52,653 bases of DNA from a virus. The notes beneath the pieces are model-generated. The model was not told the origin of the DNA. It did not search any database and saw only the letters and a program-made list of their open reading frames with translations. Below, piece after piece: positions 50 to 33,333 of the stretch (positions are counted from its first letter, which is position 1; every line of letters begins with the position of its first letter). A program made the translations under genes and the position numbers. The stretch is taken from UHGV virus genome UHGV-0083175. One strand, given 5' to 3'.

Positions 50-331
50 ATGGAAGAATTAAGAATATTTCTCAATTCTCTTTCGTCAGATGAACAGCGT
101 ATGTTTGCATGTGAGTGTGGTACTAGCATCGGTTATCTAAGAAAAGCATTGAGTAAAGGTCAAGTGTTAGGGGCATCGTTATGTGTCCTTATTGAGCGAG
201 CCAGTAATGGTGAAGTTACACGTCAGCAACTACGGCCTTTTGATTGGATGAACATTTGGCCTGAGCTGGAAGATACCCAAACGTTAACACAACCACTTTC
301 CAGGAGCTTGATTCATGAAAATCAAGCATGA
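50..331 (+). CDS. YdaS/Cro-like HTH DNA-binding protein
   Basis: 93-aa ORF behind an AAGGAG RBS. The C..IERA..GEV....LRP pattern is recalled from the Rac YdaS family. Its end overlaps the next gene. Confidence 0.65.
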   Translation: MEELRIFLNSLSSDEQRMFACECGTSIGYLRKALSKGQVLGASLCVLIERASNGEVTRQQLRPFDWMNIWPELEDTQTLTQPLSRSLIHENQA

Positions 332-752
332 ACATATCCGCATGGCAATGAATGCGTGGCTGCTTTATCCGAGGGTAGGGCGCAAAAAAATCGCTGATGA
401 TATAGCGACAGCATATTTTGAGCTTGAAATGACTTATCCACCAATGCATGACACCTCTACGACAGAGGGTATTGGATTGAACATACAAAATATTTTTCGC
501 TGGCTTGAAAAGGATACGCCTGATGCTGTTGAAAAAATTCAGGCACTAATTCCGGCTATCCTGACTGTTCTTCCGCGTGAACTGCGTTATCACCTCAGTA
601 TTTTTGACACTGTTGAGCGCCGTGCATTACTGGCGGCGCAGGAAGCGTTGAGCACGGCAATTGATGCACATGATGATGCAGTCCAGGCCGTTTACCGGAA
701 AGCGTATTTCAGCGACAGCGGGTCATCCGGCGAATCTGTTGTGGTGCATTGA
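315..752 (+). CDS. ydaT: YdaT-like (CII-type) regulatory protein
   Basis: The MKIKHEHI... N-terminus and ...RRALLAAQEALSTAIDAHDDAVQAVYRKA.. C-terminus match the recalled Rac prophage YdaT. Confidence 0.8.
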   Translation: MKIKHEHIRMAMNAWLLYPRVGRKKIADDIATAYFELEMTYPPMHDTSTTEGIGLNIQNIFRWLEKDTPDAVEKIQALIPAILTVLPRELRYHLSIFDTVERRALLAAQEALSTAIDAHDDAVQAVYRKAYFSDSGSSGESVVVH

Positions 753-838
753 TATTTATGCCAGACCCCTGCTGATTCTGTTGATTGGGGAATCACAGAA
801 TATCACCAGAGGATGGTTCGTCACAAGATGAGGCAATT

Positions 839-1849
839 ATGGCCGCATTACCATACATGCAACTGTACATAGCTGATTACCTGGCTGACACCATGCATTT
901 GTCCGCAGAGGAGCACGGCGCGTATTTGTTGTTGATGTTCAATTACTGGCAAACAGGGAAACCAATACCTAAAAACAGGCTGGCAAAAATTTCCCGTCTG
1001 ACTAACGAGCGATGGGCTGATGTGGAACCATCCTTGCGGGAGTTTTTTTGCGATAACGGCGATGAATGGGTGCATCTTCGGATTGAGGAAGATCTGGCAT
1101 CAGTCAGGGAAAAATTAACCAAAAAATCAGCCGCCGGAAAAGCATCTGTTCAGGCCAGAAGAAGCAGAAAGGAAGCATATGTTCAAACAAAACAAGAGAG
1201 AGATTTAACAGGCGTTCAAACAAATGTTGGTGTTGTGTTTGAACATGACGCAAACACAAAAGCAACTAATAAAGATACAGATCTAAAAGAATTAAACCCC
1301 ACACATAACGTGCATGAACGCGAGAGTATTCCGACCAGTGAGTCGCATGGTGCGCCGTTGCAGACAGCCGAACCTGAATACCTGGACGGCCTGAGCGAAC
1401 CCATCGGGAAATTTTCGATGACTACTGTCTGGCAGCCGTCGCCGGATTTTCGACAACGGGCAGCAGTGTGGGGTATGGCTCTGCCTGAGCCGGAATTTAC
1501 ACCTGCTGAGCTTGCCGCATTCCGGGATTACTGGATGGCGGAGGGGAAGGTTTTCACGCAGGTTCAGTGGGAGCAGAAATTTGCCCGTCACGTGCAGCAC
1601 GTCAGGGCACAGGTAAAACCAGTCAGCAAGGGGGTAAGCCATGCAGCATCAGGTGGCACGGCATCACGGGCAGTTCAGGAAATCCGGGCAGCACGCGAAC
1701 AGTGGGAACGTGACAACGGATTTATCAGCAACGGAAACGGCCTGGAAGCTGTGGGAGCTTATGGGGGAGGTGTATTCGAACCGCTGGACTCAGAAGAACG
1801 GGGCCGCACCTTCGAAGCTCTGGATTGCCCAGATTGGTGCGATGACTGA
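839..1849 (+). CDS. DUF1376/YdaU-like replication initiation (O-like) protein
   Basis: The ATG at 839 gives MAALPYMQLYIADYLADTMHLSAEEHGAYLLLMF, a DUF1376 signature. The track ORF starts at an upstream TTG (785). Confidence 0.7.
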   Translation: MAALPYMQLYIADYLADTMHLSAEEHGAYLLLMFNYWQTGKPIPKNRLAKISRLTNERWADVEPSLREFFCDNGDEWVHLRIEEDLASVREKLTKKSAAGKASVQARRSRKEAYVQTKQERDLTGVQTNVGVVFEHDANTKATNKDTDLKELNPTHNVHERESIPTSESHGAPLQTAEPEYLDGLSEPIGKFSMTTVWQPSPDFRQRAAVWGMALPEPEFTPAELAAFRDYWMAEGKVFTQVQWEQKFARHVQHVRAQVKPVSKGVSHAASGGTASRAVQEIRAAREQWERDNGFISNGNGLEAVGAYGGGVFEPLDSEERGRTFEALDCPDWCDD

Positions 1850-2303
1850 ACAGCAAATCCGTCTGGTCTGCCGTCAGTGCATGGACCGCTGCCGGGCGGG
1901 TGAAACGTGGCCCCCGGACCTGGCTGAGTTTGTTGCGCTGATTTCGGAGAGTGGGGCAAATCCATTTGGTCTTACGGTGGATGCAGTGATGGAAGAGTAC
2001 CGGCGCTGGCGCAATGAATCCTGGCGATACGACGGGAGTGATAAATACCCGTGGCCACAGCCTGTGCTGTACCACATCTGCCTCGAAATGCGTACCAGAG
2101 GGATTGAGCGCCAGATGACGCAGGGTGAGTTAAAACGACTTGCGGAACGGCAACTGACGAAATGGGCAAAGCATGTTGGTAACGGGATGAGTGTTCCGCC
2201 AGTGCGACGACAACTGGAAGGGGCGAAACACCCGCAAGGGCCAACGCCAATTGAACGGCTGAAACAGGAATACGAACGCCGGAAGGCAGCTGGTTTTATT
2301 TGA
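1641..2303 (+). CDS. Replication protein P-like (helicase loader)
   Basis: Central and C-terminal similarity to recalled lambda P (..PPDLAEFVALI.., YPW....Y). The start is uncertain: alternative ATGs lie at 1761 and 1842, and 1842 overlaps the upstream stop as ATGA. Confidence 0.6.
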   Translation: MQHQVARHHGQFRKSGQHANSGNVTTDLSATETAWKLWELMGEVYSNRWTQKNGAAPSKLWIAQIGAMTEQQIRLVCRQCMDRCRAGETWPPDLAEFVALISESGANPFGLTVDAVMEEYRRWRNESWRYDGSDKYPWPQPVLYHICLEMRTRGIERQMTQGELKRLAERQLTKWAKHVGNGMSVPPVRRQLEGAKHPQGPTPIERLKQEYERRKAAGFI

Positions 2304-2336
2304 ATCTGAGAAACGATTTTGTCGGAGGAAATTTTA

Positions 2337-3053
2337 ATGGAAACCGTATTTGACGCACTGAAAGCACTGAAAAGAGCCTCTTCACAGGTAGTGGCGGCCC
2401 GCCTTGGAATCAGCCGTGAAGATGCGGTCAACGAACTGTGGAAACTGAAGCGCCGCGGTGAAGCGGATAACAAGGGTTCGATGTGGTGGCTGATTCAGGC
2501 TGGTGAAAGTGAACCGGTGTCACCGGTACCGAAAGTGACAGCGCAAATGCTGATTAAGGCGATTGAACAACATGGCCCACAAACGGCAGATGAGCTGGCA
2601 CTGATGTTCGGGATTACCTCCCGCCGGGCGAATTCATCGCTGGCCATGGCAATCAGCAAAGGGCGTCTGATTCGCGTGAATCAGGGCGGTAAATTTCGTT
2701 ACTGCATACCGGGCGCTGATTTACCGGCAGAGCCGGAAGCTGCATCCGTAGCGGAAACAGATGGTAAAGCCTTTCCTCAGCCAGCAGGTGTTGCGTTACC
2801 AGTCCGGGAAACGACGACACAGGAAGAAATGAAAACAGAAATCGTGGAAGACATTGTGAAGTTACAGCCATCGGTCACCGAAACGAAAGCAGATGACCTG
2901 ATTCTACCATCGCTGCATGTGGCTAACCGCGAGCTGCGCCGGGCAAAAGGTCAGGTTCAGAAGTGGGAGCGTGTCTGCGCCGCGCTGCGGGAACTGAACA
3001 AACACAGGGATATTCTCCGGGATATTACCGCCACCAGAGAGCTGCTGCGGTGA
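2337..3053 (+). CDS. Hypothetical phage protein with N-terminal winged-helix-like region
   Basis: ATG at 2337 preceded by GGAGG. The N-terminus has a wHTH-like pattern (..[24 protein letters not shown]). Confidence 0.55.
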
Positions 3054-20881: not shown

Positions 20882-21247
20882 ATGGCTGAGCTTCGTACAC
20901 TCCAGAGCAGAATCAAAACACTGAATACCCGACGGGTGAATATTCTGAAGGGTGAACAGCGTCGTGTCAGTGGCAGTGCACGTGTTTCCCTCAAGCGTCA
21001 TATCTGGCTCAGGGATGCCGGGCAGTGCTGTCTCTGTGGTCGTGTGGTTGACCTCTGTGACAGTGAACTCGATCACCGAATTGCACTTCAGTTCGGTGGT
21101 GGTAATGAGGAGACGAATCTCTGGACGCTCTGTACCGAATGCCATCGACAAAAGTCTGCTCGTGAAGCGGCGGGTGGTATGCCGGACCCGACGCTGCCGG
21201 AGGTGTCCGGAGGTAGTGGCAGAGCGGACGACATCATCGGACTGTAA
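20882..21247 (+). CDS. HNH endonuclease (packaging-associated)
   Basis: C.LCG.......ELDH.......G...NL..LC..CH..K pattern, located immediately upstream of cos and terS. Confidence 0.85.
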   Translation: MAELRTLQSRIKTLNTRRVNILKGEQRRVSGSARVSLKRHIWLRDAGQCCLCGRVVDLCDSELDHRIALQFGGGNEETNLWTLCTECHRQKSAREAAGGMPDPTLPEVSGGSGRADDIIGL

Positions 21248-21249
21248 CC

Positions 21250-21320
21250 CGACCGGGGGGGGGGAATCATTCGGGGTAAAAAACGATCGCTCCGGACACC
21301 CCCCCCCCTCTCACCCAGAG
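21250..21320. other. Helper cos region (predicted cosN)
   Basis: G10 (21255-21264) ... CGATCGCTCCGGACACC ... C10 (21299-21308), between the HNH and terS genes. A homologous copy lies at 30051-30115. Confidence 0.5.
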
Positions 21321-21342
21321 AAAAAATTCCCGTTTCAGGTCA

Positions 21343-21462
21343 GTTAACATGTTAACTGGCTTCACGGGCATTTTTGCAGTTTTTATCTTTATTATTCAGT
21401 TTGTTGCGCGGAAAAAATGTTAACAGGCTTTTTCAGCAAATGTTAACCAGGCAGCAGTTAAC
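21343..21462. repeat. Five ATGTTAAC/GTTAACAT repeats (cosB-like TerS-binding sites, predicted)
   Basis: GTTAAC at 21343, 21351, 21419, 21442 and 21457, lying between cos and terS. Confidence 0.55.
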
Positions 21463-21538: not shown

Positions 21539-22102
21539 GTGCTGACAACGCAAAAACGAAAATTTGCGCTGGCGCTCATGTCCGGGAAAAACAAAACAGC
21601 GTCAGCCATTGCCGCCGGTTATTCGGCGAAGACAGCCAGGGTTAAAGGCTCGCAGCTGGCAAAAGATCCGGAGGTGCTCGCGTTTATAGCCCGTAAGCAG
21701 TGCGAGACGGTAGAGGTGGATGAGGTTCCTGTTTACCGGCAGAAAAAATCAGAGCAGGAGGATAAACCCCGTCGCCGTGAGGCGGCTGCAATACCACAGC
21801 CGGACGAAACAAATCCGGAGATGCCTCTGCCCGTGGTGATATCTCCTGGTATTGAGTATATGGATGACGGTCTTCCCGATCCGGTGAAAGCGATGGGGCG
21901 TCTTCTGGTGGAGAACATTAATACCGACCCCAGGCTGGCGCTGGATGTGGCTTATAAGCTGGCACAGTTCACGCACCACAAAAAAGGGGATGCCGGTAAA
22001 AAATCGGCAAAAGGTGACGCGGCGAAAAAAGCGGCTAACCGTTTTGCGGTGCCACCACCCCCCCGACTGGTGGTGAATAATGATAATGAGGGCAGCGGAT
22101 GA
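21539..22102 (+). CDS. terS: Terminase small subunit (P27 family)
   Basis: N-terminal HTH QKRKFALALMSGKNKTASAIAAGYSAKTARVKGSQLAKDPEV. Its stop overlaps the terL start. Confidence 0.85.
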   Translation: MLTTQKRKFALALMSGKNKTASAIAAGYSAKTARVKGSQLAKDPEVLAFIARKQCETVEVDEVPVYRQKKSEQEDKPRRREAAAIPQPDETNPEMPLPVVISPGIEYMDDGLPDPVKAMGRLLVENINTDPRLALDVAYKLAQFTHHKKGDAGKKSAKGDAAKKAANRFAVPPPPRLVVNNDNEGSG

Positions 22103-22380
22103 TACCTGTGTGGAGCACGGCCTGCCCGGACTGGGCAGAGCGCCTGAAAAAGGGGCTGTCGATTATTCCGGCTCCGATTTACCCGGACCAGGCCGCACAT
22201 GCCCTGGCGATTTTTAAACAACTGCGGATTGTGGATGCACCGGGCAGCCCGACGTTCGGGGAGTCCTGTGCACCGTGGGTGTTTGATCTGGTGGCTGCCC
22301 TGTTTGGCTCCTACGATGCGCAGACCGGTGTACGCCATATAAAGGAAGTGTTCATTCTGATACCGAAAAATAATAGATAA
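22099..22380 (+). pseudogene. terL: Terminase large subunit, 5' fragment (interrupted by the island)
   Basis: The TerL N-terminus ends ..IKEVFILIPKNNR*. The reading frame breaks inside the P-loop at the island junction. Confidence 0.85.
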
Positions 22381-22543: not shown

Positions 22544-23779
22544 ATGCTAATCAAACCGTTAAGCCATGTTGAAGTAAAGAACGCAAAACCAAAGGATAAA
22601 GATTACTCGCTTCATGATGGATTTGGGTTGTTGTTATATGTTTCAAGAAAAGGCTGTAAAACATGGCGTTTCAGGTATCAGCACCCCGACACCAAAAAAA
22701 GACAAACGCTTACCATTGGTCGTTATCCAGATTATTCAATAGCTGAGGCAAGAGAGGAAAGGGATAAAGCAAGGAAATTACTTTCAAGAGGTGTGGATCC
22801 TAATGAGTCTAAGCGCAAGGCAAAATCTGAACGAATTATGCTGAGGTCACAGACCTTTGAAAAAATAACAAATAACTGGTTTGAATTGTATTTAAAGGGA
22901 AGCAGAAGGGAAAATACAGTAAAAACAGTTAGCAGAGTTATTAAAGTTTATATTATTCCTGATTTTGGGGGTTGGACGATTTATGATATACGTGCTGATA
23001 ATGTATTGTCAGTTATTAGAAAATATGACGAAACGCCTGCACAGCAACGAAAAATAGTACAGGTTATGCGTCTTGTTATGGATTATGCCGTGAATGCTGG
23101 AATTGTTCAGTTTAATCCGTTGTCTCGTATTCATAAAGCGCTTCCACCTATGGAAGAGAAAAGCTTTAAGGCGCTGCCCATAGAAAGATTACCCGCTTTT
23201 CTTAATTGGCTTGAGTCAGAAAGTTGTCATCCATCAATAACATATGGTCTTCTTTTTATGATGCTGACAATGACCAGACCTAACGAGGCATTAGGTGCCA
23301 AATGGTCAGAACTGGACGTTGACAGAAAACTATGGACCATTCCAGCAGAGAGGATGAAGGGGAAAAGAGAACACATTATTCCTTTATCTTTACAGGCTGT
23401 TGAAGTGATAATGCGAATGAGAAAAATAAAACAAAGTGAGTATGTTTTTTTTGGTGCTCATTCAGTTGCAAAGGCAATAACGAGAGATGCTATTGTCAGT
23501 AGGGTTAATAAAAGCGAGTTTGCAAAGGAAATGACAGTACACGGATTCAGGTCAATGTGGAGCACATTACTCAATGAAGAGGGATTTAACCCCGATGTTA
23601 TAGAGGCTGCACTTGCACATAAGAGCGGAAATACTGTAAGGGATATTTATAACAGGACGTCATATATTGAACAGCGGGTAATAATGATGCAATGGATAGG
23701 TGATTTTGTCGATTCTGCAAGACGTGGGGTTATTGTTAGGACGCATGGTAAACGCGGTTTAAAATTGGTAAATGAATAA
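22544..23779 (+). CDS. int: Tyrosine integrase (P4-type, N-terminal DUF4102 arm-binding domain)
   Basis: ..KDKDYSLHDGFGLLLYVSRKGCKTWRFRY... N-terminus. The catalytic region has ..HGFRS.. and ..LAH.....VR..Y. Confidence 0.9.
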   Translation: MLIKPLSHVEVKNAKPKDKDYSLHDGFGLLLYVSRKGCKTWRFRYQHPDTKKRQTLTIGRYPDYSIAEAREERDKARKLLSRGVDPNESKRKAKSERIMLRSQTFEKITNNWFELYLKGSRRENTVKTVSRVIKVYIIPDFGGWTIYDIRADNVLSVIRKYDETPAQQRKIVQVMRLVMDYAVNAGIVQFNPLSRIHKALPPMEEKSFKALPIERLPAFLNWLESESCHPSITYGLLFMMLTMTRPNEALGAKWSELDVDRKLWTIPAERMKGKREHIIPLSLQAVEVIMRMRKIKQSEYVFFGAHSVAKAITRDAIVSRVNKSEFAKEMTVHGFRSMWSTLLNEEGFNPDVIEAALAHKSGNTVRDIYNRTSYIEQRVIMMQWIGDFVDSARRGVIVRTHGKRGLKLVNE

Positions 23780-26432: not shown

Positions 26433-26732
26433 ATGAAACTTAAATATTCTGGCTTAACTGCCAGTGGCAACACTCACCCTAAATTTACGCGCGGTGATAT
26501 TTACCGCGACCAGTACGGCGGCACGGTAATGATTAAGGGCGTGGCGGGACGGTGCGTAACTTACCGCCGTGAAGGTTACGAATATGATTGCGTGATGCCT
26601 GTTTATCAGTTCCGGCGTGATTTTTCTCTGGTACAGACCGCGCCGCATAACGTGCCCACCAGCAACGCCAGGGCACGGGCAAACATCCAGAAGCTGAAAA
26701 CCATGATTAACGGATTCAGGGGTAAAAAATGA
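26433..26732 (+). CDS. Hypothetical protein
   Basis: 99-aa ORF whose stop overlaps the start of the rep gene. Confidence 0.5.
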   Translation: MKLKYSGLTASGNTHPKFTRGDIYRDQYGGTVMIKGVAGRCVTYRREGYEYDCVMPVYQFRRDFSLVQTAPHNVPTSNARARANIQKLKTMINGFRGKK

Positions 26733-28126
26733 AACTGGCACCGAATGTAAAACTGTTACCGAAAGATAAACACACCGAAGCGGTTATTTTTGCGGGTGAT
26801 AATGCTCACTCATTTGCAGAGCACTACATCATTGCACAGGCCAAAAAAGCAGGCGATCCAGTCCCTCCCGTTTACCTGGGGCGTTATCAGTTAAGCGAAC
26901 TGGATAACTTGCAGATTGTTGATAAAGGTCGGTTCAGGGCGAAAGTGATACGTGCCGGAAATATTGACGAAGTGCAGTTGTTAACCATCGCCACGAAACT
27001 GGCAATCGCAGGAGTCCAGGAAGCGCGCCTGTTTTCTGAAAATTTCGAATTGCTGGAGGAATGGAGCGACCAGCTTACACGGCTTAGGGAGACATGGGAA
27101 CGCGGGGAAAGCCTGAGCCACCAGCGAAAAACAAAGCTACCGATGAGCGTTGGATCTGCCGGATACGACACGCAATTAGATTACGTGGTAAAGGGGATTA
27201 TTCCGGCATCGTCGCTATGCAGCATATACGGGGCGAGCGGTTCATATAAATCGTTCCTTGCGGGTTCGTGGGCGTGTCACGTTTCCACGGGCCGCCAGTG
27301 GGGAGGCCGCAGGGTTGCACATGGTGCAGTTCTCTATGTGGTTGGTGAAGGCGGTATTGGTGTTCCGCGTCGTGTAAAAGCCTGGGAGGTTGTGCACGGT
27401 GAGCAGGTGAAAAATCTGTATCTGGTAAACCGTCCCATCTTTCCGGCTGTCCCGCTTGATGTTGATGAAATGGTTATCGCTGCCCGCCAGGTGGAACGGG
27501 AAACCGGTAAACCTGTACGCATGATTATTCTGGATACGCTGGCGCGTTGCTTTGGCGGCAATGATGAAAATGACTCCCGCGACATGGGGGCATTTATCCG
27601 TGGTTGTGACGAGCTTAAACGGCGCACAGGGGCCACTGTGCTGGTGGTTCACCATTCCGGCAAGGATGAAACAAAGGGGGCGCGTGGTTCCAGTGCATTT
27701 CGTGCTTCGCTGGATGCTGAATACCGGATACGCAGGGAGGACGCAGGAAGCGAAGCGCTGGTTATCTCATGCACCAAAATGAAGGACGCGGAGGAACTCA
27801 AAGAGGCTGCCTATGATTTGCGGGTGGTGGAGCTTTTTACCGACGCTGACGGGGAGTTAATCACGTCGCTGGTGGTGGTGGATAAGTCGCGCCCTCCCGT
27901 TGAACTGGAGCGCATCGAAGAGGCAGGCAACAAGACGGAAAACCATACCGCGCTATGGGGGTGTATCCGTTCACGCACACAGAACGGCGACAAGTGCACG
28001 ATCCCGCTGTTACGTGATGACATGAAAAAACTGGGGTACGAAATAAAGCACTTCCGGCGCTGGCTGGGCAAGCTGGAAAAAGACGGCGTTATCTATGTTG
28101 ACGGCGATGATGTAGGGCCACTGTAA
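26729..28126 (+). CDS. Replication protein, RepA/AAA_25-type (RecA-like) helicase, Pri-Rep-like
   Basis: Walker A-like YGASGSYKSF, Walker B-like RMIILDTLARCFGG.DEND, and ..VLVVHHSGKD..KGARGSSA. Iterons follow immediately. Confidence 0.8.
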   Translation: MKLAPNVKLLPKDKHTEAVIFAGDNAHSFAEHYIIAQAKKAGDPVPPVYLGRYQLSELDNLQIVDKGRFRAKVIRAGNIDEVQLLTIATKLAIAGVQEARLFSENFELLEEWSDQLTRLRETWERGESLSHQRKTKLPMSVGSAGYDTQLDYVVKGIIPASSLCSIYGASGSYKSFLAGSWACHVSTGRQWGGRRVAHGAVLYVVGEGGIGVPRRVKAWEVVHGEQVKNLYLVNRPIFPAVPLDVDEMVIAARQVERETGKPVRMIILDTLARCFGGNDENDSRDMGAFIRGCDELKRRTGATVLVVHHSGKDETKGARGSSAFRASLDAEYRIRREDAGSEALVISCTKMKDAEELKEAAYDLRVVELFTDADGELITSLVVVDKSRPPVELERIEEAGNKTENHTALWGCIRSRTQNGDKCTIPLLRDDMKKLGYEIKHFRRWLGKLEKDGVIYVDGDDVGPL

Positions 28127-29888: not shown

Positions 29889-30050
29889 ATGGTTATCACA
29901 GAACGCGAGGCAAGCATCATTAAAGCCATTGGCGAGGAAACAAGAGACACGATAGCGCCATTAATGGAAAAGATCGCAGAGCTTGAGACACGAATAAACA
30001 AGCTGAGTGATGAAGTTGAAGGCCTGATCTCGTTACTCGGTGAGCAATGA
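29889..30050 (+). CDS. 53-aa protein resembling the N-terminus of the helper repeat protein (below the track cutoff)
   Basis: MVITEREASIIKAIGEE.. compared with the helper protein at 36907, MNERELSIIRALGEE... It has a coiled-coil tail. Confidence 0.45.
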   Translation: MVITEREASIIKAIGEETRDTIAPLMEKIAELETRINKLSDEVEGLISLLGEQ

Positions 30051-30115
30051 CAGGGGGGGGGGAGTGTTCCGGCCGGAAAGTCGATCGCCCTGGACACCGC
30101 CCCCCGTCTCATTCG
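30051..30115. other. Island cos-like site
   Basis: G10 (30053-30062) ... CGATCGCCCTGGACACC-G-CCCCCC-GTCTCA, homologous to helper 21255-21312. Confidence 0.5.
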
Positions 30116-30138
30116 TAGAAAATTTTGCTTTTCAAAAA

Positions 30139-30412
30139 AGTTACACGAAAAGTTACACCCCCTCAAAACGAGGTTTTTGCATGGCATTAACGACCAAAAA
30201 AAAGCGGTTTGCTGATGCGTTATCAAGGGGCGCAAATCCCACGGAAGCCGCTATACATGCGGGATACAGCGAAAAGACCGCAAGGGTTAAAGGCTGGCAG
30301 CTATCCAACGATCCTGAGGTGAAAAAGTATCTTAAGGTTGTCACTCCTGATGTAACTTTTCAGGTTACAAAACCGAAAAAAGTTACAAAGAAAGTTACCG
30401 AAAAAGTTACAC
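30139..30412. repeat. (A/G)GTTAC(A/C) repeat array spanning the terS-like 5' region
   Basis: Copies at 30139, 30151, ~30351 (inverted), 30363, 30381, 30393 and 30405. The last three are spaced 12 bp apart. Confidence 0.55.
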
Positions 30413-30669
30413 CGGAACGGGCATCAATCAGCACCATAGAACGGATGGACAACGGCTTGCCCGACCCTATCAAAGCTATGGGCAGGATACTGGCTGACAA
30501 CATAGACACAGATCCAAAACTGGCTTTAGATGCCGCGTTTAAGCTGGCCCAGTTCACCCACCGCAAGATCGGCAGCATTGGGAAAAAAGAGGTTAAAAAA
30601 CTCAATGCCGCGAATGTCTCCTCAAATCGGTTCCCCATCCCTAAGCCACCAACAGGCTTAAAACACTGA
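30181..30669 (+). CDS. Island-encoded terminase small subunit paralogue
   Basis: The HTH KKKRFADALSRGANPTEAAIHAGYSEKTARVKGWQL and C-terminus MDNGLPDPIKAMGRILADNIDTDPKLALDAAFKLAQFTH closely parallel the helper TerS. Confidence 0.8.
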   Translation: MALTTKKKRFADALSRGANPTEAAIHAGYSEKTARVKGWQLSNDPEVKKYLKVVTPDVTFQVTKPKKVTKKVTEKVTPERASISTIERMDNGLPDPIKAMGRILADNIDTDPKLALDAAFKLAQFTHRKIGSIGKKEVKKLNAANVSSNRFPIPKPPTGLKH

Positions 30670-30680
30670 GGTAGCGAACT

Positions 30681-30842
30681 ATGAACGAATACATCACAGA
30701 CCCTATTGATGTACTCACGGAAATCATGAACGACAAGCAGCAGCCAACCGAAATACGGTTACAGGCTGCCGCTGTTCTGATGCCATATTTTCACGAAACT
30801 CTAACCCCATGTTACCAGGAGGAAGAAGATGATGATTTCTAA
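30681..30842 (+). CDS. 53-aa hypothetical protein (below the track cutoff)
   Basis: MNEYITDPIDVLTEIMNDKQQPTEIRLQAAAVLMPYFHE.. with an acidic tail. It overlaps the next start. Confidence 0.45.
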   Translation: MNEYITDPIDVLTEIMNDKQQPTEIRLQAAAVLMPYFHETLTPCYQEEEDDDF

Positions 30843-31755
30843 AAACATGAAAGGCGTGTCGGCAGTTCGCGCCGCCAGCGTGCTTACATCGTGTAAATTC
30901 AGCCATGCAGACGCAATTGAAATGACGAAAAAAAATGATCCGGCAGTATCGAAATTTCTTGAAAAATCCATTGTTGCCGGAATGACTACGGATAATATGC
31001 CGTCGCTGGTGGCAGAGCCGATAGTAAGAGAGCTTGGCGAGTATATTTTTTCGCAGTCTGTACCAGGCAAGCTAATCAGCAGCGCGCTGAATCTTCCGTT
31101 TGGCGCAAAATTGCAGTCAATATCAGGCAAGGGTAGTAAATGGCTTAAAGAAGCCGAAGAAATCCCTGTCAAAGAGGGAGAAGTAAACGAAAGTGCGCTA
31201 AAACTGTGCAAACTTGGCGCTATTGTGATGCTGAATAACGAGCTAATCAAATTTAGCACCCCTGGTACCAATTCAGCGATCAGAGACTTGATCACATCGG
31301 AATCGGTGAAAGAAATAGATAAAAAATTTCTTTCCAGTGACCAGGAGTTGGCGGGCGTATCCCCTGAGGGCGTGCTTAATGGTGCTGATGAGGCCGAAAA
31401 CTTCATAGAGCTTTTCAAAAAGCACATAGCGAACGGTAACACGCTTGCCACGTCGTCGCTAATCTTGCCCGTAGAAAACGCCTTACAGCTTACTGATGCT
31501 GAGTTCTGGCAGATAGAGCTTTTGAGAATACCGGTAATTGTGAGCGAACAGGCGGATCGCATGATGCTGATAGACGCTCAAAAGCTGATTATTAACGTTG
31601 AAGCCACGGTTATAACCCCAACTGATGAGGCGGTAATAAAAACCGAATCAGGGACGGTTAGCCTTTTCCAGAATGACGCTACAGCGTTCAGGGCAATCAC
31701 CTATTGCGGATGGCAAAAACTCGATAAGGCCGTCACCGTTCTGGCGCAATCTTGA
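30829..31755 (+). CDS. HK97-fold major capsid protein paralogue (no protease/scaffold part)
   Basis: Several blocks align by eye to the C-terminal half of 33397-35334, for example ..LCKLGAIVMLNNELIKFSTPGTNSAIRDLI.. against ..AKVSAIAVLTEELIRFSSPAADALVRNAL... Confidence 0.7.
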   Translation: MMISKNMKGVSAVRAASVLTSCKFSHADAIEMTKKNDPAVSKFLEKSIVAGMTTDNMPSLVAEPIVRELGEYIFSQSVPGKLISSALNLPFGAKLQSISGKGSKWLKEAEEIPVKEGEVNESALKLCKLGAIVMLNNELIKFSTPGTNSAIRDLITSESVKEIDKKFLSSDQELAGVSPEGVLNGADEAENFIELFKKHIANGNTLATSSLILPVENALQLTDAEFWQIELLRIPVIVSEQADRMMLIDAQKLIINVEATVITPTDEAVIKTESGTVSLFQNDATAFRAITYCGWQKLDKAVTVLAQS

Positions 31756-31932: not shown

Positions 31933-33333
31933 ATACCCAAAAAAAACAGCAAGTCCACGCTGGCTGCCGGGATCATGATGACGGCGCTGTTACTGAACTG
32001 GCGGCAGGCGGCGGGCTACACCATTCTGGCCCCGACCGTGGAGGTGGCGGCTAATGCCTTCAATCCTGCCAGGGATATGGTACGACGGGACGATGATCTG
32101 GATGACCTCTGTCAGGTGCAGACACATATCCGGACCATCACCCATCGGGTGACGGACACCACCCTGAAGGTGGTGGCAGCCGATCCGAATACGGTGTCCG
32201 GTATCAAGTCCGTGGGGACACTGATTGATGAACTGTGGCTGTTTGGCAAGCAGTACAAAGCGGAGGACATGTTACGTGAAGCCATAGGTGGCCTTGCCTC
32301 CCGCCCGGAAGGGTTTGTGGTGTATACGACCACCCAGTCGAATGAACCGCCCGCCGGGGTGTTCAGACAGAAACTGCAGTACGCCCGGGATGTGCGCGAC
32401 GGCAAAATTCATGATCCGCACTTTCTGCCGGTGATATTTGAGCATCCGCCGGAGATGGTGGAGCGCGGTGAGCACCTGCTGATGGAAAACCTCGCCATGG
32501 TCAATCCGAATCTCGGTTATTCGGTGGATGAGGCCTTTCTGTACCGGGAGTATCGTAAAGCCCGGGAAGCCGGTGAAGATACATTCCGGGGGTTCATGTC
32601 AAAACACGCCAATGTGGAAATTGGTCTTGCCCTGCGTTCTGACCGCTGGGCGGGTGCGGATTTCTGGGAGCAGCAGGGCAGGCGCGTCAGCCTGGACGAT
32701 ATTCTGCAGCGCGCTGATGTGGTGACGGTGGGGATTGACGGCGGGGGCCTGGATGATCTGCTGGGAATGTACGTGATTGGCCGTGACAGGGAAACCCGCG
32801 AATGGCTGGGCTGGGGCCATGCCTGGGCGCATGAAACCGCGGTGGTCAGACGGAAGAGTGAGGCATCCCGTTTTCAGGATTTTGTGGCCTGTGGAGACAT
32901 GACGATTGTCCGTCGGGTCGGGGATGACACGGCGGAAGTGGCGGAGTATGTGCGTCGTATTCATGAGGCTGAGTTACTGGATCATATCGGTATTGACCCG
33001 TCAGGTGTGGGGCAGATTCTGGATTCACTGGCGGAAGCCGGGATCCCCGACGGAATTGTTGTGGGGATAAGCCAGGGCTGGAAGCTGGGCGGGGCCATCA
33101 AAACCACCGAGCGCAAACTGGCTGAGGGAGTGCTGGTGCATGGTGGTCAGCCACTGATGGCCTGGTGCGTTGGCAATGCCCGGGTGGAGCCTAAAGGTAA
33201 CGCCATCCTTATTACCAAACAGGCCAGCGGACGGGGGAAAATTGACCCGCTGATGGCGCTGTTCAATGCGGTATCCCTGATATCCCTGAATCCGGAGCCC
33301 AAAAAGAAAGAATATGCGGTTTTTTTCATATAA
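31933..33333 (+). pseudogene. terL: Terminase large subunit, 3' fragment
   Basis: The frame is open from 31933 (IPKKNSKSTLAAGIMMTALLLNW...). The track ORF begins at the internal ATG 31975. It continues 22099-22380. Confidence 0.85.

What the first reader, a model, noticed from the sequence alone, without database searches (positions are those of the whole stretch)
30139..30412. Putative TerS recognition repeats lie inside the island terS coding sequence and simultaneously encode a KKVT peptide repeat
Seven (A/G)GTTAC(A/C) copies run from just downstream of the island cos into the terS-like ORF. The last three (30381, 30393, 30405) are spaced exactly 12 bp apart. They translate as VTKPKKVTKKVTEKVT, which forms the linker between the HTH and the conserved C-terminal domain.

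The helper TerS has no such linker, and its repeats (ATGTTAAC) are intergenic. The same DNA may therefore serve both as a phased protein-binding array and as a coding repeat, which constrains both functions.
Basis: seen in the sequence. Interest (0 to 1): 0.5.

Follow-up and report, generated by a model that had tools for sequence, protein, structure and literature searches.

The report
Packaging-signal repeats written inside terS gene
A short DNA word next to a satellite island's packaging (cos) site is repeated inside the island's own small-terminase gene, where it forces a KVT peptide repeat, and related phages and islands with a different word carry the matching repeat, so the DNA rather than the peptide is what is conserved.

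Summary
Seven RGTTACM copies lie in 30139-30411: six on the + strand and one (30351) on the - strand. Two are non-coding, between the island cos and the terS ATG. Five lie in the codons for the disordered linker (VTKPKKVTKKVTEKVT).

- In eight lineages at 55-65% protein identity, the motif V/T codons stay fixed (GTT-ACA direct, GTA-ACT inverted). Other conserved four-fold codons vary freely (codon identity 0.83 vs 0.32, p~1e-5).
- An inverted copy encodes DVTF rather than KKVT.
- In other branches of this TerS family the cos-proximal non-coding word changes (GTTAAC, GTAAAC, TCAACA). The linker then carries that same word, read as KVN, VY/VN or MLT/GVNI.

The feature is not island-specific. True phages (Hafnia, Morganella-like, Serratia-type) have it too. 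The helper in this window instead keeps all five GTTAAC copies upstream of terS.

Best reading: a two-part cosB-like recognition array whose distal half lies in the terS linker codons. Binding by TerS is inferred, not shown.

This is a new variant of a known kind. pac sites inside terS are known for P22 and SPP1. Interest is moderate to good.

The parts
30049..30135 (+). Island cos core: G-run 30053-30062, then CGATCGCCCTGGACACCGCCCCCCGTCTCATTCGTAGAAAATTTT.
   Evidence: It aligns with the helper cos (21250-21335) and with the cos regions of eight related phages and islands. The blocks G6-10, GGACACC, CCCCCTCTCA and AGAAAAAAT are conserved.
30136..30159 (+). Proximal, non-coding sites U1 and U2: AAAAGTTACACG and AAAAGTTACACC, 12 bp apart, 22 bp before the terS ATG.
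   Evidence: A site sits at the homologous position after the cos core in every relative, and its sequence differs by lineage.
30181..30669 (+). Island terS, 162 aa: HTH aa 3-52, disordered linker about aa 55-88, helical C-domain aa 96-147.
   Evidence: PF03592 at E=2.4e-10. phrog_641 matches full length at E=2.3e-43. AlphaFold model. Identity to the helper TerS is 59% in the HTH, 9% in the linker and 69% in the C-domain.
30339..30360 (-). Inverted copies. TGTCACT at 30339-30345 is degenerate here and reads TGTAACT in relatives. TGTAACTTTT at 30351-30360 is the reverse complement of AAAAGTTACA. They encode VVTP and DVTF.
   Evidence: I5: 10 nt, 100% complementary to 30378-30387.. GTA-ACT is fixed across the lineages.
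30363..30411 (+). Direct coding copies: GGTTACA (30363), AAAAGTTACA (30378-30387), AAAGTTACC (30390-30398), AAAAGTTACA (30402-30411). They encode QVT..KKVTKKVTEKVT.
   Evidence: Copy number is 1 to 3 in relatives above 90% identity (P0004, P0003, P0001).
21343..21462 (.). Helper counterpart: five (AT)GTTAAC copies, all non-coding, between the helper cos (G-run at 21255) and the helper terS ATG (21539).
   Evidence: The first copy occupies the same aligned position as island site U1.

Best explanation
The AAAAGTTACA copies are sequence-specific recognition sites of a two-part, cosB-like packaging signal. The proximal part (one or two copies) lies directly after the conserved cos core. The distal part lies about 190-260 bp further on, inside terS, in the codons of the disordered linker between the HTH and the oligomerisation domain. 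It consists of one or two inverted copies and two to four direct copies, mostly 12 bp apart.

The protein tolerates almost any sequence and length in that linker. The DNA word can therefore be kept there, and the KVT repeat is its translation by-product.

The likely binder is the HTH ring of the island's own TerS. That TerS keeps a helper-like C-domain, so it could engage the helper TerL and HNH. On this reading the island cos (GTTACA word) is chosen over the helper cos (GTTAAC word).

Shown here: the DNA-level constraint, the linkage to the cos and packaging module, and the co-variation of the proximal and distal words.

Inferred: that TerS is the binder, that the intervening DNA wraps or loops, and that the sites are required for packaging.
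For: 1. Clustering far beyond chance.
2. The same 10-mer occurs in non-coding DNA with the same 12-bp spacing, so the spacing is not just a four-codon period.
3. The inverted copy encodes DVTF and the direct copies encode KKVT. The DNA word is kept while the peptide differs.
4. Eight lineages at 55-65% protein identity keep GTT-ACA, GTA-ACT and AAA in the motif codons. Codon identity is 0.83 there against 0.32 at 33 other conserved codons that are at least four-fold degenerate (maximum 0.75). Permutation p~1e-5; Mann-Whitney p=2.6e-4.
5. Co-variation across the family:
   - upstream GTTACA with linker GTTACA/C x3-5 in 8 loci;
   - upstream GTTAAC with linker GTTAAC/GTTAAT x4-9 (L242, L243, L330);
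   - upstream ATTAAC with linker GTTAAC x3 (L244, L335);
   - upstream GTAAAC or ATAAAC with linker GTTTAT..GTAAAC in 66 of 68 unique Serratia-type loci;
   - upstream ATTAAC with linker GTTAAT x2 (L248);
   - upstream TCAACA with linker ATGTTGAC..GTCAACAT (L325).
   Matching each upstream region to its own linker rather than a shuffled one gives p~1e-5.
6. In L242 and L085, GTTAAC is also kept out of frame, read as R-L-T and V-L-T.
7. The word travels with the packaging module, not the replication module. It is the same with a RepA helicase, with P4-type primases, and in true phages.
8. The linker is predicted disordered, and its length varies by multiples of 12 bp.
9. Precedent: SPP1 pac repeats span the start of its terS, and the P22 pac site lies inside its terS (PMC4737164, PMC9611059).
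Against: - There is no binding or packaging data for any member of this lineage.
- The nearest solved relative by sequence with DNA-binding data is the SF6 TerS. Its isolated HTH domain showed no specificity in vitro for the pac box repeats (PMC4737164).
- HTH residues do not track the word cleanly. P0017 has Cys after KG but uses GTTAAC.
- The helper-type TerS works with no linker copies, so the distal array is not obligatory for the family.
- The tandem part varies from 1 to 3 copies in near-identical islands, so some copies may be dispensable.
- Sequences in the tests are phylogenetically related, so the p-values overstate independence.
Confidence: 0.62

Rival explanations
1. The DNA or RNA word is functional, but not as a TerS packaging site. 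It could be an operator for another protein (HNH, TerL, one of the small 53-aa proteins, or a host factor). It could also be an autoregulatory or RNA-level element controlling terS expression, since the proximal copy lies next to the ribosome-binding site and inverted copies can pair with it.
For: The proximal copy is 22-41 nt before the ATG, and it abuts the ATG in the Serratia-type loci. The upstream pair and the inverted coding copies are 76% complementary over 25 nt (I1). Co-variation of the upstream and inverted copies would also be expected from RNA pairing.
Against: Most copies are direct, not inverted, and are phased at 12 bp. The RNA fold of 30125-30420 is unremarkable (z=-1.43; 19 of 200 shuffles fold as well). 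No promoter-like site overlaps the repeats. The proximal site sits at a fixed distance from the conserved cos core rather than from the ATG. In the helper and in L085 it is still right after cos, although the ATG is about 280 bp away.
Confidence: 0.2
2. The repeat is a slippage-prone 12-bp microsatellite in a permissive linker. It was seeded once by duplication of the upstream site and persists neutrally. Only the proximal non-coding site is functional.
For: Copy number varies from 1 to 3 in islands above 90% identity, and up to about 12 in P0059. The helper lineage has none.
Against: Neutral copies would decay. Instead the word, both orientations and the wobble bases are kept across lineages whose other synonymous sites are scrambled. 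The distal word changes together with the proximal word in at least four motif classes. Isolated inverted copies cannot arise by tandem slippage, yet they are conserved.
Confidence: 0.1
3. Selection acts on the peptide: a basic KVT/KVN linker needed by the protein. The resemblance of the DNA to the upstream site is incidental.
For: Lys-rich linkers can aid non-specific DNA contact. VT or VN recurs in many family members.
Against: Wobble bases are fixed, including the use of ACA for Thr. The inverted copies encode different peptides (DVTF, AVTS), and out-of-frame copies encode RLT and VLT. The same word occurs in non-coding DNA. The peptide switches from T to N to Y exactly as the non-coding word switches. 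The linker is predicted disordered, and the helper linker aligns to it at only 9% identity.
Confidence: 0.05

Closest known systems
Lambda cosB (R3, R2 and R1 sites bound by gpNu1) and the altered cosB of E. coli PICIs that use Rpp (PMC6739421)
   Same: Repeated short words lie on the terS side of the cleavage site and set packaging specificity. The satellite keeps a helper-like cleavage core but has a different recognition word.
   Different: Lambda R sites are all upstream of Nu1, and gpNu1 belongs to a different TerS family. Rpp islands carry a TerS-mimicking partner protein rather than a full TerS. Here the island has a full TerS, and most copies lie inside its coding sequence.
SPP1/SF6 pac (boxA, boxB and boxC repeats spanning the promoters and start of the terS gene) and the P22 22-bp pac site inside gene 3 (PMC4737164, PMC9611059)
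   Same: The recognition region overlaps the terS gene itself. The SF6 TerS HTH is the nearest solved relative by sequence with DNA-binding data (3zqp E=0.007, 4zc3 E=0.018). The top hit by sequence is the Pam5 small terminase (21di, E=4e-4).
   Different: Those are headful (pac) systems. This one has an HNH gene and a conserved cos core. There the overlap is with the 5' end or a structured part of the gene, and no peptide repeat results. In vitro, the SF6 HTH did not prefer the box repeats.
SaPI-type satellites that carry their own TerS (summarised in PMC6739421)
   Same: The satellite supplies a TerS homologue that would redirect the helper TerL to satellite DNA. The island TerS C-domain is 69% identical to the helper's.
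   Different: The SaPI system is pac-type and Gram-positive. Here it is cos-type in Enterobacteria, with the recognition words visible and comparable between satellite and helper.

Membership tests
Terminase_2 / phrog_641 small terminase | N-terminal HTH matching PF03592 above the gathering score | tested here: met
   41.6 bits against a cut-off of 26.1, aa 3-52.
Terminase_2 / phrog_641 small terminase | Full-length similarity, including the C-terminal oligomerisation region | tested here: met
   phrog_641 at E=2.3e-43, aa 1-158 of 162. The C-domain is 69% identical to the helper TerS.
cosB-type recognition array | Repeated word adjacent to a cos cleavage core, on the terS side | tested here: met
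   Sites U1 and U2 lie directly after the conserved cos core. This position is homologous in nine aligned elements.
cosB-type recognition array | The word is bound by the cognate TerS and is required for packaging | not testable with these tools
   Only indirect support: co-variation of the proximal and distal words and partial tracking by an HTH residue.
cosB-type recognition array | The array lies wholly in non-coding DNA upstream of terS, as in lambda | tested here: not met
   Five of the seven copies are inside the terS reading frame.
pac site inside terS (P22/SPP1 type) | The recognition sequence overlaps the terS reading frame | tested here: met
   Copies lie at 30339-30411 within the CDS 30181-30669. 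That they act in recognition is inferred.
pac site inside terS (P22/SPP1 type) | Headful packaging without a fixed cohesive-end site | tested here: not met
   A conserved cos core is present, and an HNH gene precedes cos in the phage members. The end type itself was not measured.
Phage satellite (PICI-like) with its own TerS | Integrase, replication module, and packaging or capsid-redirection genes, but no terL, portal or tail genes | tested here: met
   int 22544-23779, AAA_25/RepA 26729-28126, terS, and a capsid-like ORF 30829-31755. The terL pieces flanking the island belong to the prophage.
Phage satellite (PICI-like) with its own TerS | Induction and packaging depend on a helper phage | not testable with these tools
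   No experimental data.

The most novel reading that the evidence does not exclude
In a whole branch of HNH-associated cos phages and their satellites, the disordered TerS linker is above all a carrier of DNA. It houses the distal half of the packaging signal, so the protein sequence there is dictated by the binding word: KVT, KVN, VY/VN.

Packaging specificity would then evolve by coordinated change of the proximal non-coding word, the distal coding word and the HTH. Satellites would use such a switch (GTTACA against the helper's GTTAAC) to be packaged in preference to their helper.

This would give a natural, readable specificity code for a TerS family in which sequence-specific recognition has been hard to demonstrate.
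Probability: 0.45. Interest if true: 0.7.

Novelty: new variant of a known kind. Interest (0 to 1): 0.58.

Why it matters
How small terminases pick out viral DNA is still unclear for most systems, and in-vitro binding is typically weak and non-specific (PMC9611059).

Here natural variation supplies matched sets of word, position, spacing and HTH from at least four specificity classes. These include a satellite and helper pair in one window that differ by GTTACA against GTTAAC. That makes recognition directly testable by site swaps and synonymous recoding.

It is also a clean example of an overlapping code, in which a DNA-binding word imposes a peptide repeat on a tolerant protein linker. Finally, it suggests how cos-type satellites with their own TerS discriminate self from helper.

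Tried and rejected
- The genome-contig scan with the TerS alignment returned only distant HTH-only hits. It was of no use for the linker.
- The viral contigs and metagenome-contig scans with the alignment returned only relatives at 93% identity or more, plus a few weak partial hits.
- An exact-pattern scan of viral contigs for two phased AAGTTACM copies mostly found unrelated sequences. These were intergenic arrays in AT-rich phages and EVTP/EVTG coding repeats. None had a TerS context, so the scan was dropped.
- tblastn of the Hafnia TerS against deposited phages found only helper-type Stx-phage TerS at about 41% identity.
- Iterons of the island replication origin were rejected. The word goes with the packaging module across three different replication modules and in phages.
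- RNA structure: the fold z-score is -1.43, not notable.
- Promoter or operator: no sigma-70-like site lies over the repeats.
- The minus-strand ORFs 30153-30344 and 30360-30638 are mechanical ORFs inside terS with no support.

Full report
**Context**

The window is an enterobacterial lambdoid prophage with an Stx-phage-like head module.
- HNH gene: 20882-21247.
- Helper cos, with its G-run at 21255.
- Helper terS: 21539-22102.
- terL is split into 22099-22380 and 31975-33333.

Between the two terL pieces sits a satellite island of about 9.6 kb.
- Integrase: 22544-23779.
- RepA/AAA_25 helicase: 26729-28126.
- A 53-aa ORF, then a second cos.
- A 162-aa terS: 30181-30669.
- A second 53-aa ORF.
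- A capsid-like ORF: 30829-31755.

The island packaging module occurs at 95-99% identity in 220 of 5426 complete E. coli genomes. There it sits in islands at other sites, such as tRNA-Pro near yejM, and with other replication genes.

**Observation**

- RGTTACM occurs seven times in 30139-30411. The copy at 30351 is on the minus strand.
- The cluster is far beyond chance: P is about 1e-10 to 1e-11, and still below 1e-5 after correcting for every window position.
- The longer word AAGTTAC has six of its ten window copies here, against 3.6 expected in the whole window.
- The two non-coding copies (30136-30159) and the last three coding copies are each 12 bp apart.
- The coding copies read VTKPKKVTKKVTEKVT.
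- They lie between the Pfam HTH (aa 3-52) and the helical C-domain. AlphaFold models this stretch with pLDDT below 50 (aa 57-84).
- The helper has five GTTAAC copies at 21343-21462, all non-coding, and none in its terS.
- The helper linker is unrelated: 9% identity, against 59% for the HTH and 69% for the C-domain.
- Close relatives show that window 30340 GTCAC is a decayed GTAAC. The coding array is therefore two inverted plus four direct copies.

**Is the DNA or the peptide conserved?**

A protein search gave relatives at 51-96% identity, and loci were recovered for most of them.

Relatives at 55-65% identity all show the same layout. They include an E. coli element, Salmonella and metagenome islands, and two true phages with terS-terL modules.
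- One or two AAAAGTTACAC copies at a fixed place after the cos core.
- One or two inverted GTA-ACT copies at about +156 to +171 from the ATG.
- One to four direct (AAA-)GTT-ACA/C copies at about +183 to +225.

A codon alignment of eight lineages shows the motif V, T and K codons nearly frozen.
- V/T codon identity is 0.83 in the motif.
- It is 0.32 at 33 other conserved codons that are at least four-fold degenerate, none of which exceeds 0.75.
- Permutation gives p~1e-5, and Mann-Whitney gives p=2.6e-4.

The inverted copy encodes DVTF, and AVTS in relatives, while the direct copies encode KKVT. The 10-mer AAAAGTTACA is kept in both orientations while the peptide differs. The non-coding pair has the same 12-bp spacing, so that spacing is not merely a four-codon period.

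**Co-variation**

A profile search of the wider TerS family showed that other lineages carry other short repeats at the same linker position: KVN, EVN, NVNTP, NVYTPAVNTP. V-N is GTT-AAC, which is the helper-type word. That predicted which DNA should be found, and the DNA confirmed it.
- L242 is an island with the terS, 53-aa ORF and capsid-like gene order. It has AAAAAAGTTAAC after cos. Its linker has GTTAAC five times, three of them as AAA-GTT-AAC at 12-bp spacing and one out of frame as R-L-T.
- The Morganella-like phages L243 and L330 have GTTAAC upstream and GTTAAC or GTTAAT four to nine times in the linker. L244 and L335 have ATTAAC upstream and GTT-AAC three times at 12-bp spacing.
- The Serratia-type phages gave 71 unique sequences. 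They carry (T)GTAAAC or (T)ATAAAC abutting the ATG, and the inverted pair GTTTAT..GTAAAC in the linker, read as N-V-Y-T-P-A-V-N-T. The two loci with ATTAAC upstream both have GTTAAT in the linker, against 6 of 138 comparisons for the other classes.
- L325 has ATCAACATT upstream and ATGTTGAC..GTCAACAT in the linker, read as M-L-T and G-V-N-I.

An unbiased test asked which upstream 6-mers recur in a locus's own linker. It picks out exactly these words.

These sequences are related to one another, so the p-values are upper bounds on the strength of the evidence. However, the pattern recurs in at least four different words.

**What it is tied to**

An alignment of nine cos regions shows a conserved core: G-run, GGACACC, CCCCCTCTCA, AGAAAAAAT, T-run. 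The first site follows at a fixed position and varies by lineage. In the helper that position holds AGTTAACATGTTAAC.

The word travels with cos and terS whatever the replication module is, and it is present in true phages. This rules out replication iterons.

No promoter-like site overlaps it, and the RNA fold is unremarkable.

**Mechanism proposed**

The array is read as a two-part cosB-like signal.
- The proximal part lies directly after cos.
- The distal part lies about 190-260 bp further on, in the only part of terS that can absorb a DNA constraint. That part is the disordered, length-variable linker, where copy number varies from 1 to 3 in near-identical islands and reaches about 12 in P0059.
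- The likely reader is the TerS HTH, acting as an oligomer.
- The nearest solved relatives by sequence are the Pam5 small terminase (21di, E=4e-4) and the SF6 TerS, matched over the HTH region.
- The island TerS keeps a helper-like C-domain, so it could recruit the helper TerL and HNH to the island cos.

Binding, DNA wrapping and necessity for packaging are all inferred.

Caveats:
- The isolated SF6 HTH showed no preference for the SPP1 and SF6 box repeats (PMC4737164).
- The helper lineage manages with upstream copies only.
- The HTH residue after KG tracks the word imperfectly: W/C/Y with GTTACA, S with GTTAAC, except P0017.

**Comparison with known systems**
- Lambda cosB R sites and the altered cosB of Rpp-type E. 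coli PICIs (PMC6739421) work the same way in principle. They are entirely upstream of terS and involve another TerS family.
- Overlap of recognition sites with terS is known for the pac phages SPP1 and P22 (PMC4737164, PMC9611059).
- From my own memory, not checked here: the phage P1 pac site, with hexamer repeats inside pacA, is a further precedent.

What appears new is the combination of four things: a cos-type, HNH-associated family; a phased array in the linker codons that creates a peptide repeat; family-wide co-variation with the non-coding site; and a satellite and helper pair that differ in the word. I found no paper describing this in four literature searches.

**Verdict**

The dual-use interpretation is supported at the level of DNA selection and linkage to cos. 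The identity of the binding protein is untested. This is a new variant of a known kind, of moderate to good interest.

Noticed in passing
window 22360-22376 and 31933-31949 (island ends); terL pieces 22099-22380 and 31975-33333: The satellite is inserted inside the prophage terL, in the codons of the Walker A motif. The left piece ends ...FILIPK, and the right piece resumes ...IPKKNSKSTLAAG. Intact terL genes elsewhere show a 17-bp overlap of the two flanks, which marks the att core. Only 1 of 5426 complete E. coli genomes (strain 90-3040) has the same junction. However, a Salmonella island (L089) is followed by the prophage protease-capsid gene, and a metagenome island (L091) by a terL 3' fragment. 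Excision would restore terL, so the satellite may gate helper packaging.
   Followed up: partly
window 30681-30842 (+): A 53-aa ORF directly after terS resembles the TerS C-domain (phrog_641 positions 88-126, E=7e-7) but has no HTH. A 49-53-aa ORF sits in the same place in related islands, and in a true phage between terS and terL (L225). It could be a terminase accessory protein or a TerS-oligomer modulator.
   Followed up: partly
window 30829-31755 (+): The island encodes a 308-aa protein with a weak HK97-type major-capsid match (PF05065 at 28.8 bits; phrog_617 and phrog_10) but no portal or protease. It may be a capsid-size redirection protein of the Ccm kind.
   Followed up: no
P0001/P0003/P0004; P0050/P0051/P0074; P0044/P0059 (locus L330 nt 1501-2097): The linker arrays change copy number in steps of 12 bp among close relatives: 3, 2 and 1 KVT units; 2 to 4 EVN units; and up to about 12 VN units in a 199-aa TerS. 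This points to replication slippage within the array.
   Followed up: partly
L085 nt 1736-2018 (E. coli element, TerS 63% identical): This relative has a long 282-bp spacer between cos and the ATG, as the helper does. The spacer holds seven mixed GTTAC and GTTAAC copies, and the linker copies are present as well. It may be an intermediate between the all-upstream and the split architectures. Its terS is flanked by AlpA and IS200-type genes and has no capsid-like gene.
   Followed up: no
L116 5190-5362, L131 3538-3709, L153 6614-6769, L167 10337-10492 (viral contigs): Unrelated AT-rich phage contigs carry dense intergenic arrays of AAAGTTACA and TGTAACTTT in both orientations. They have no TerS context and are probably operators or iterons of another system.
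   Followed up: no
window 29889-30050 (+) and homologues upstream of cos in L089 and L091: A conserved 53-56-aa coiled-coil-like ORF ends exactly at the island cos G-run. It takes the place that the HNH gene occupies in the phages. Its function is unknown.
   Followed up: no
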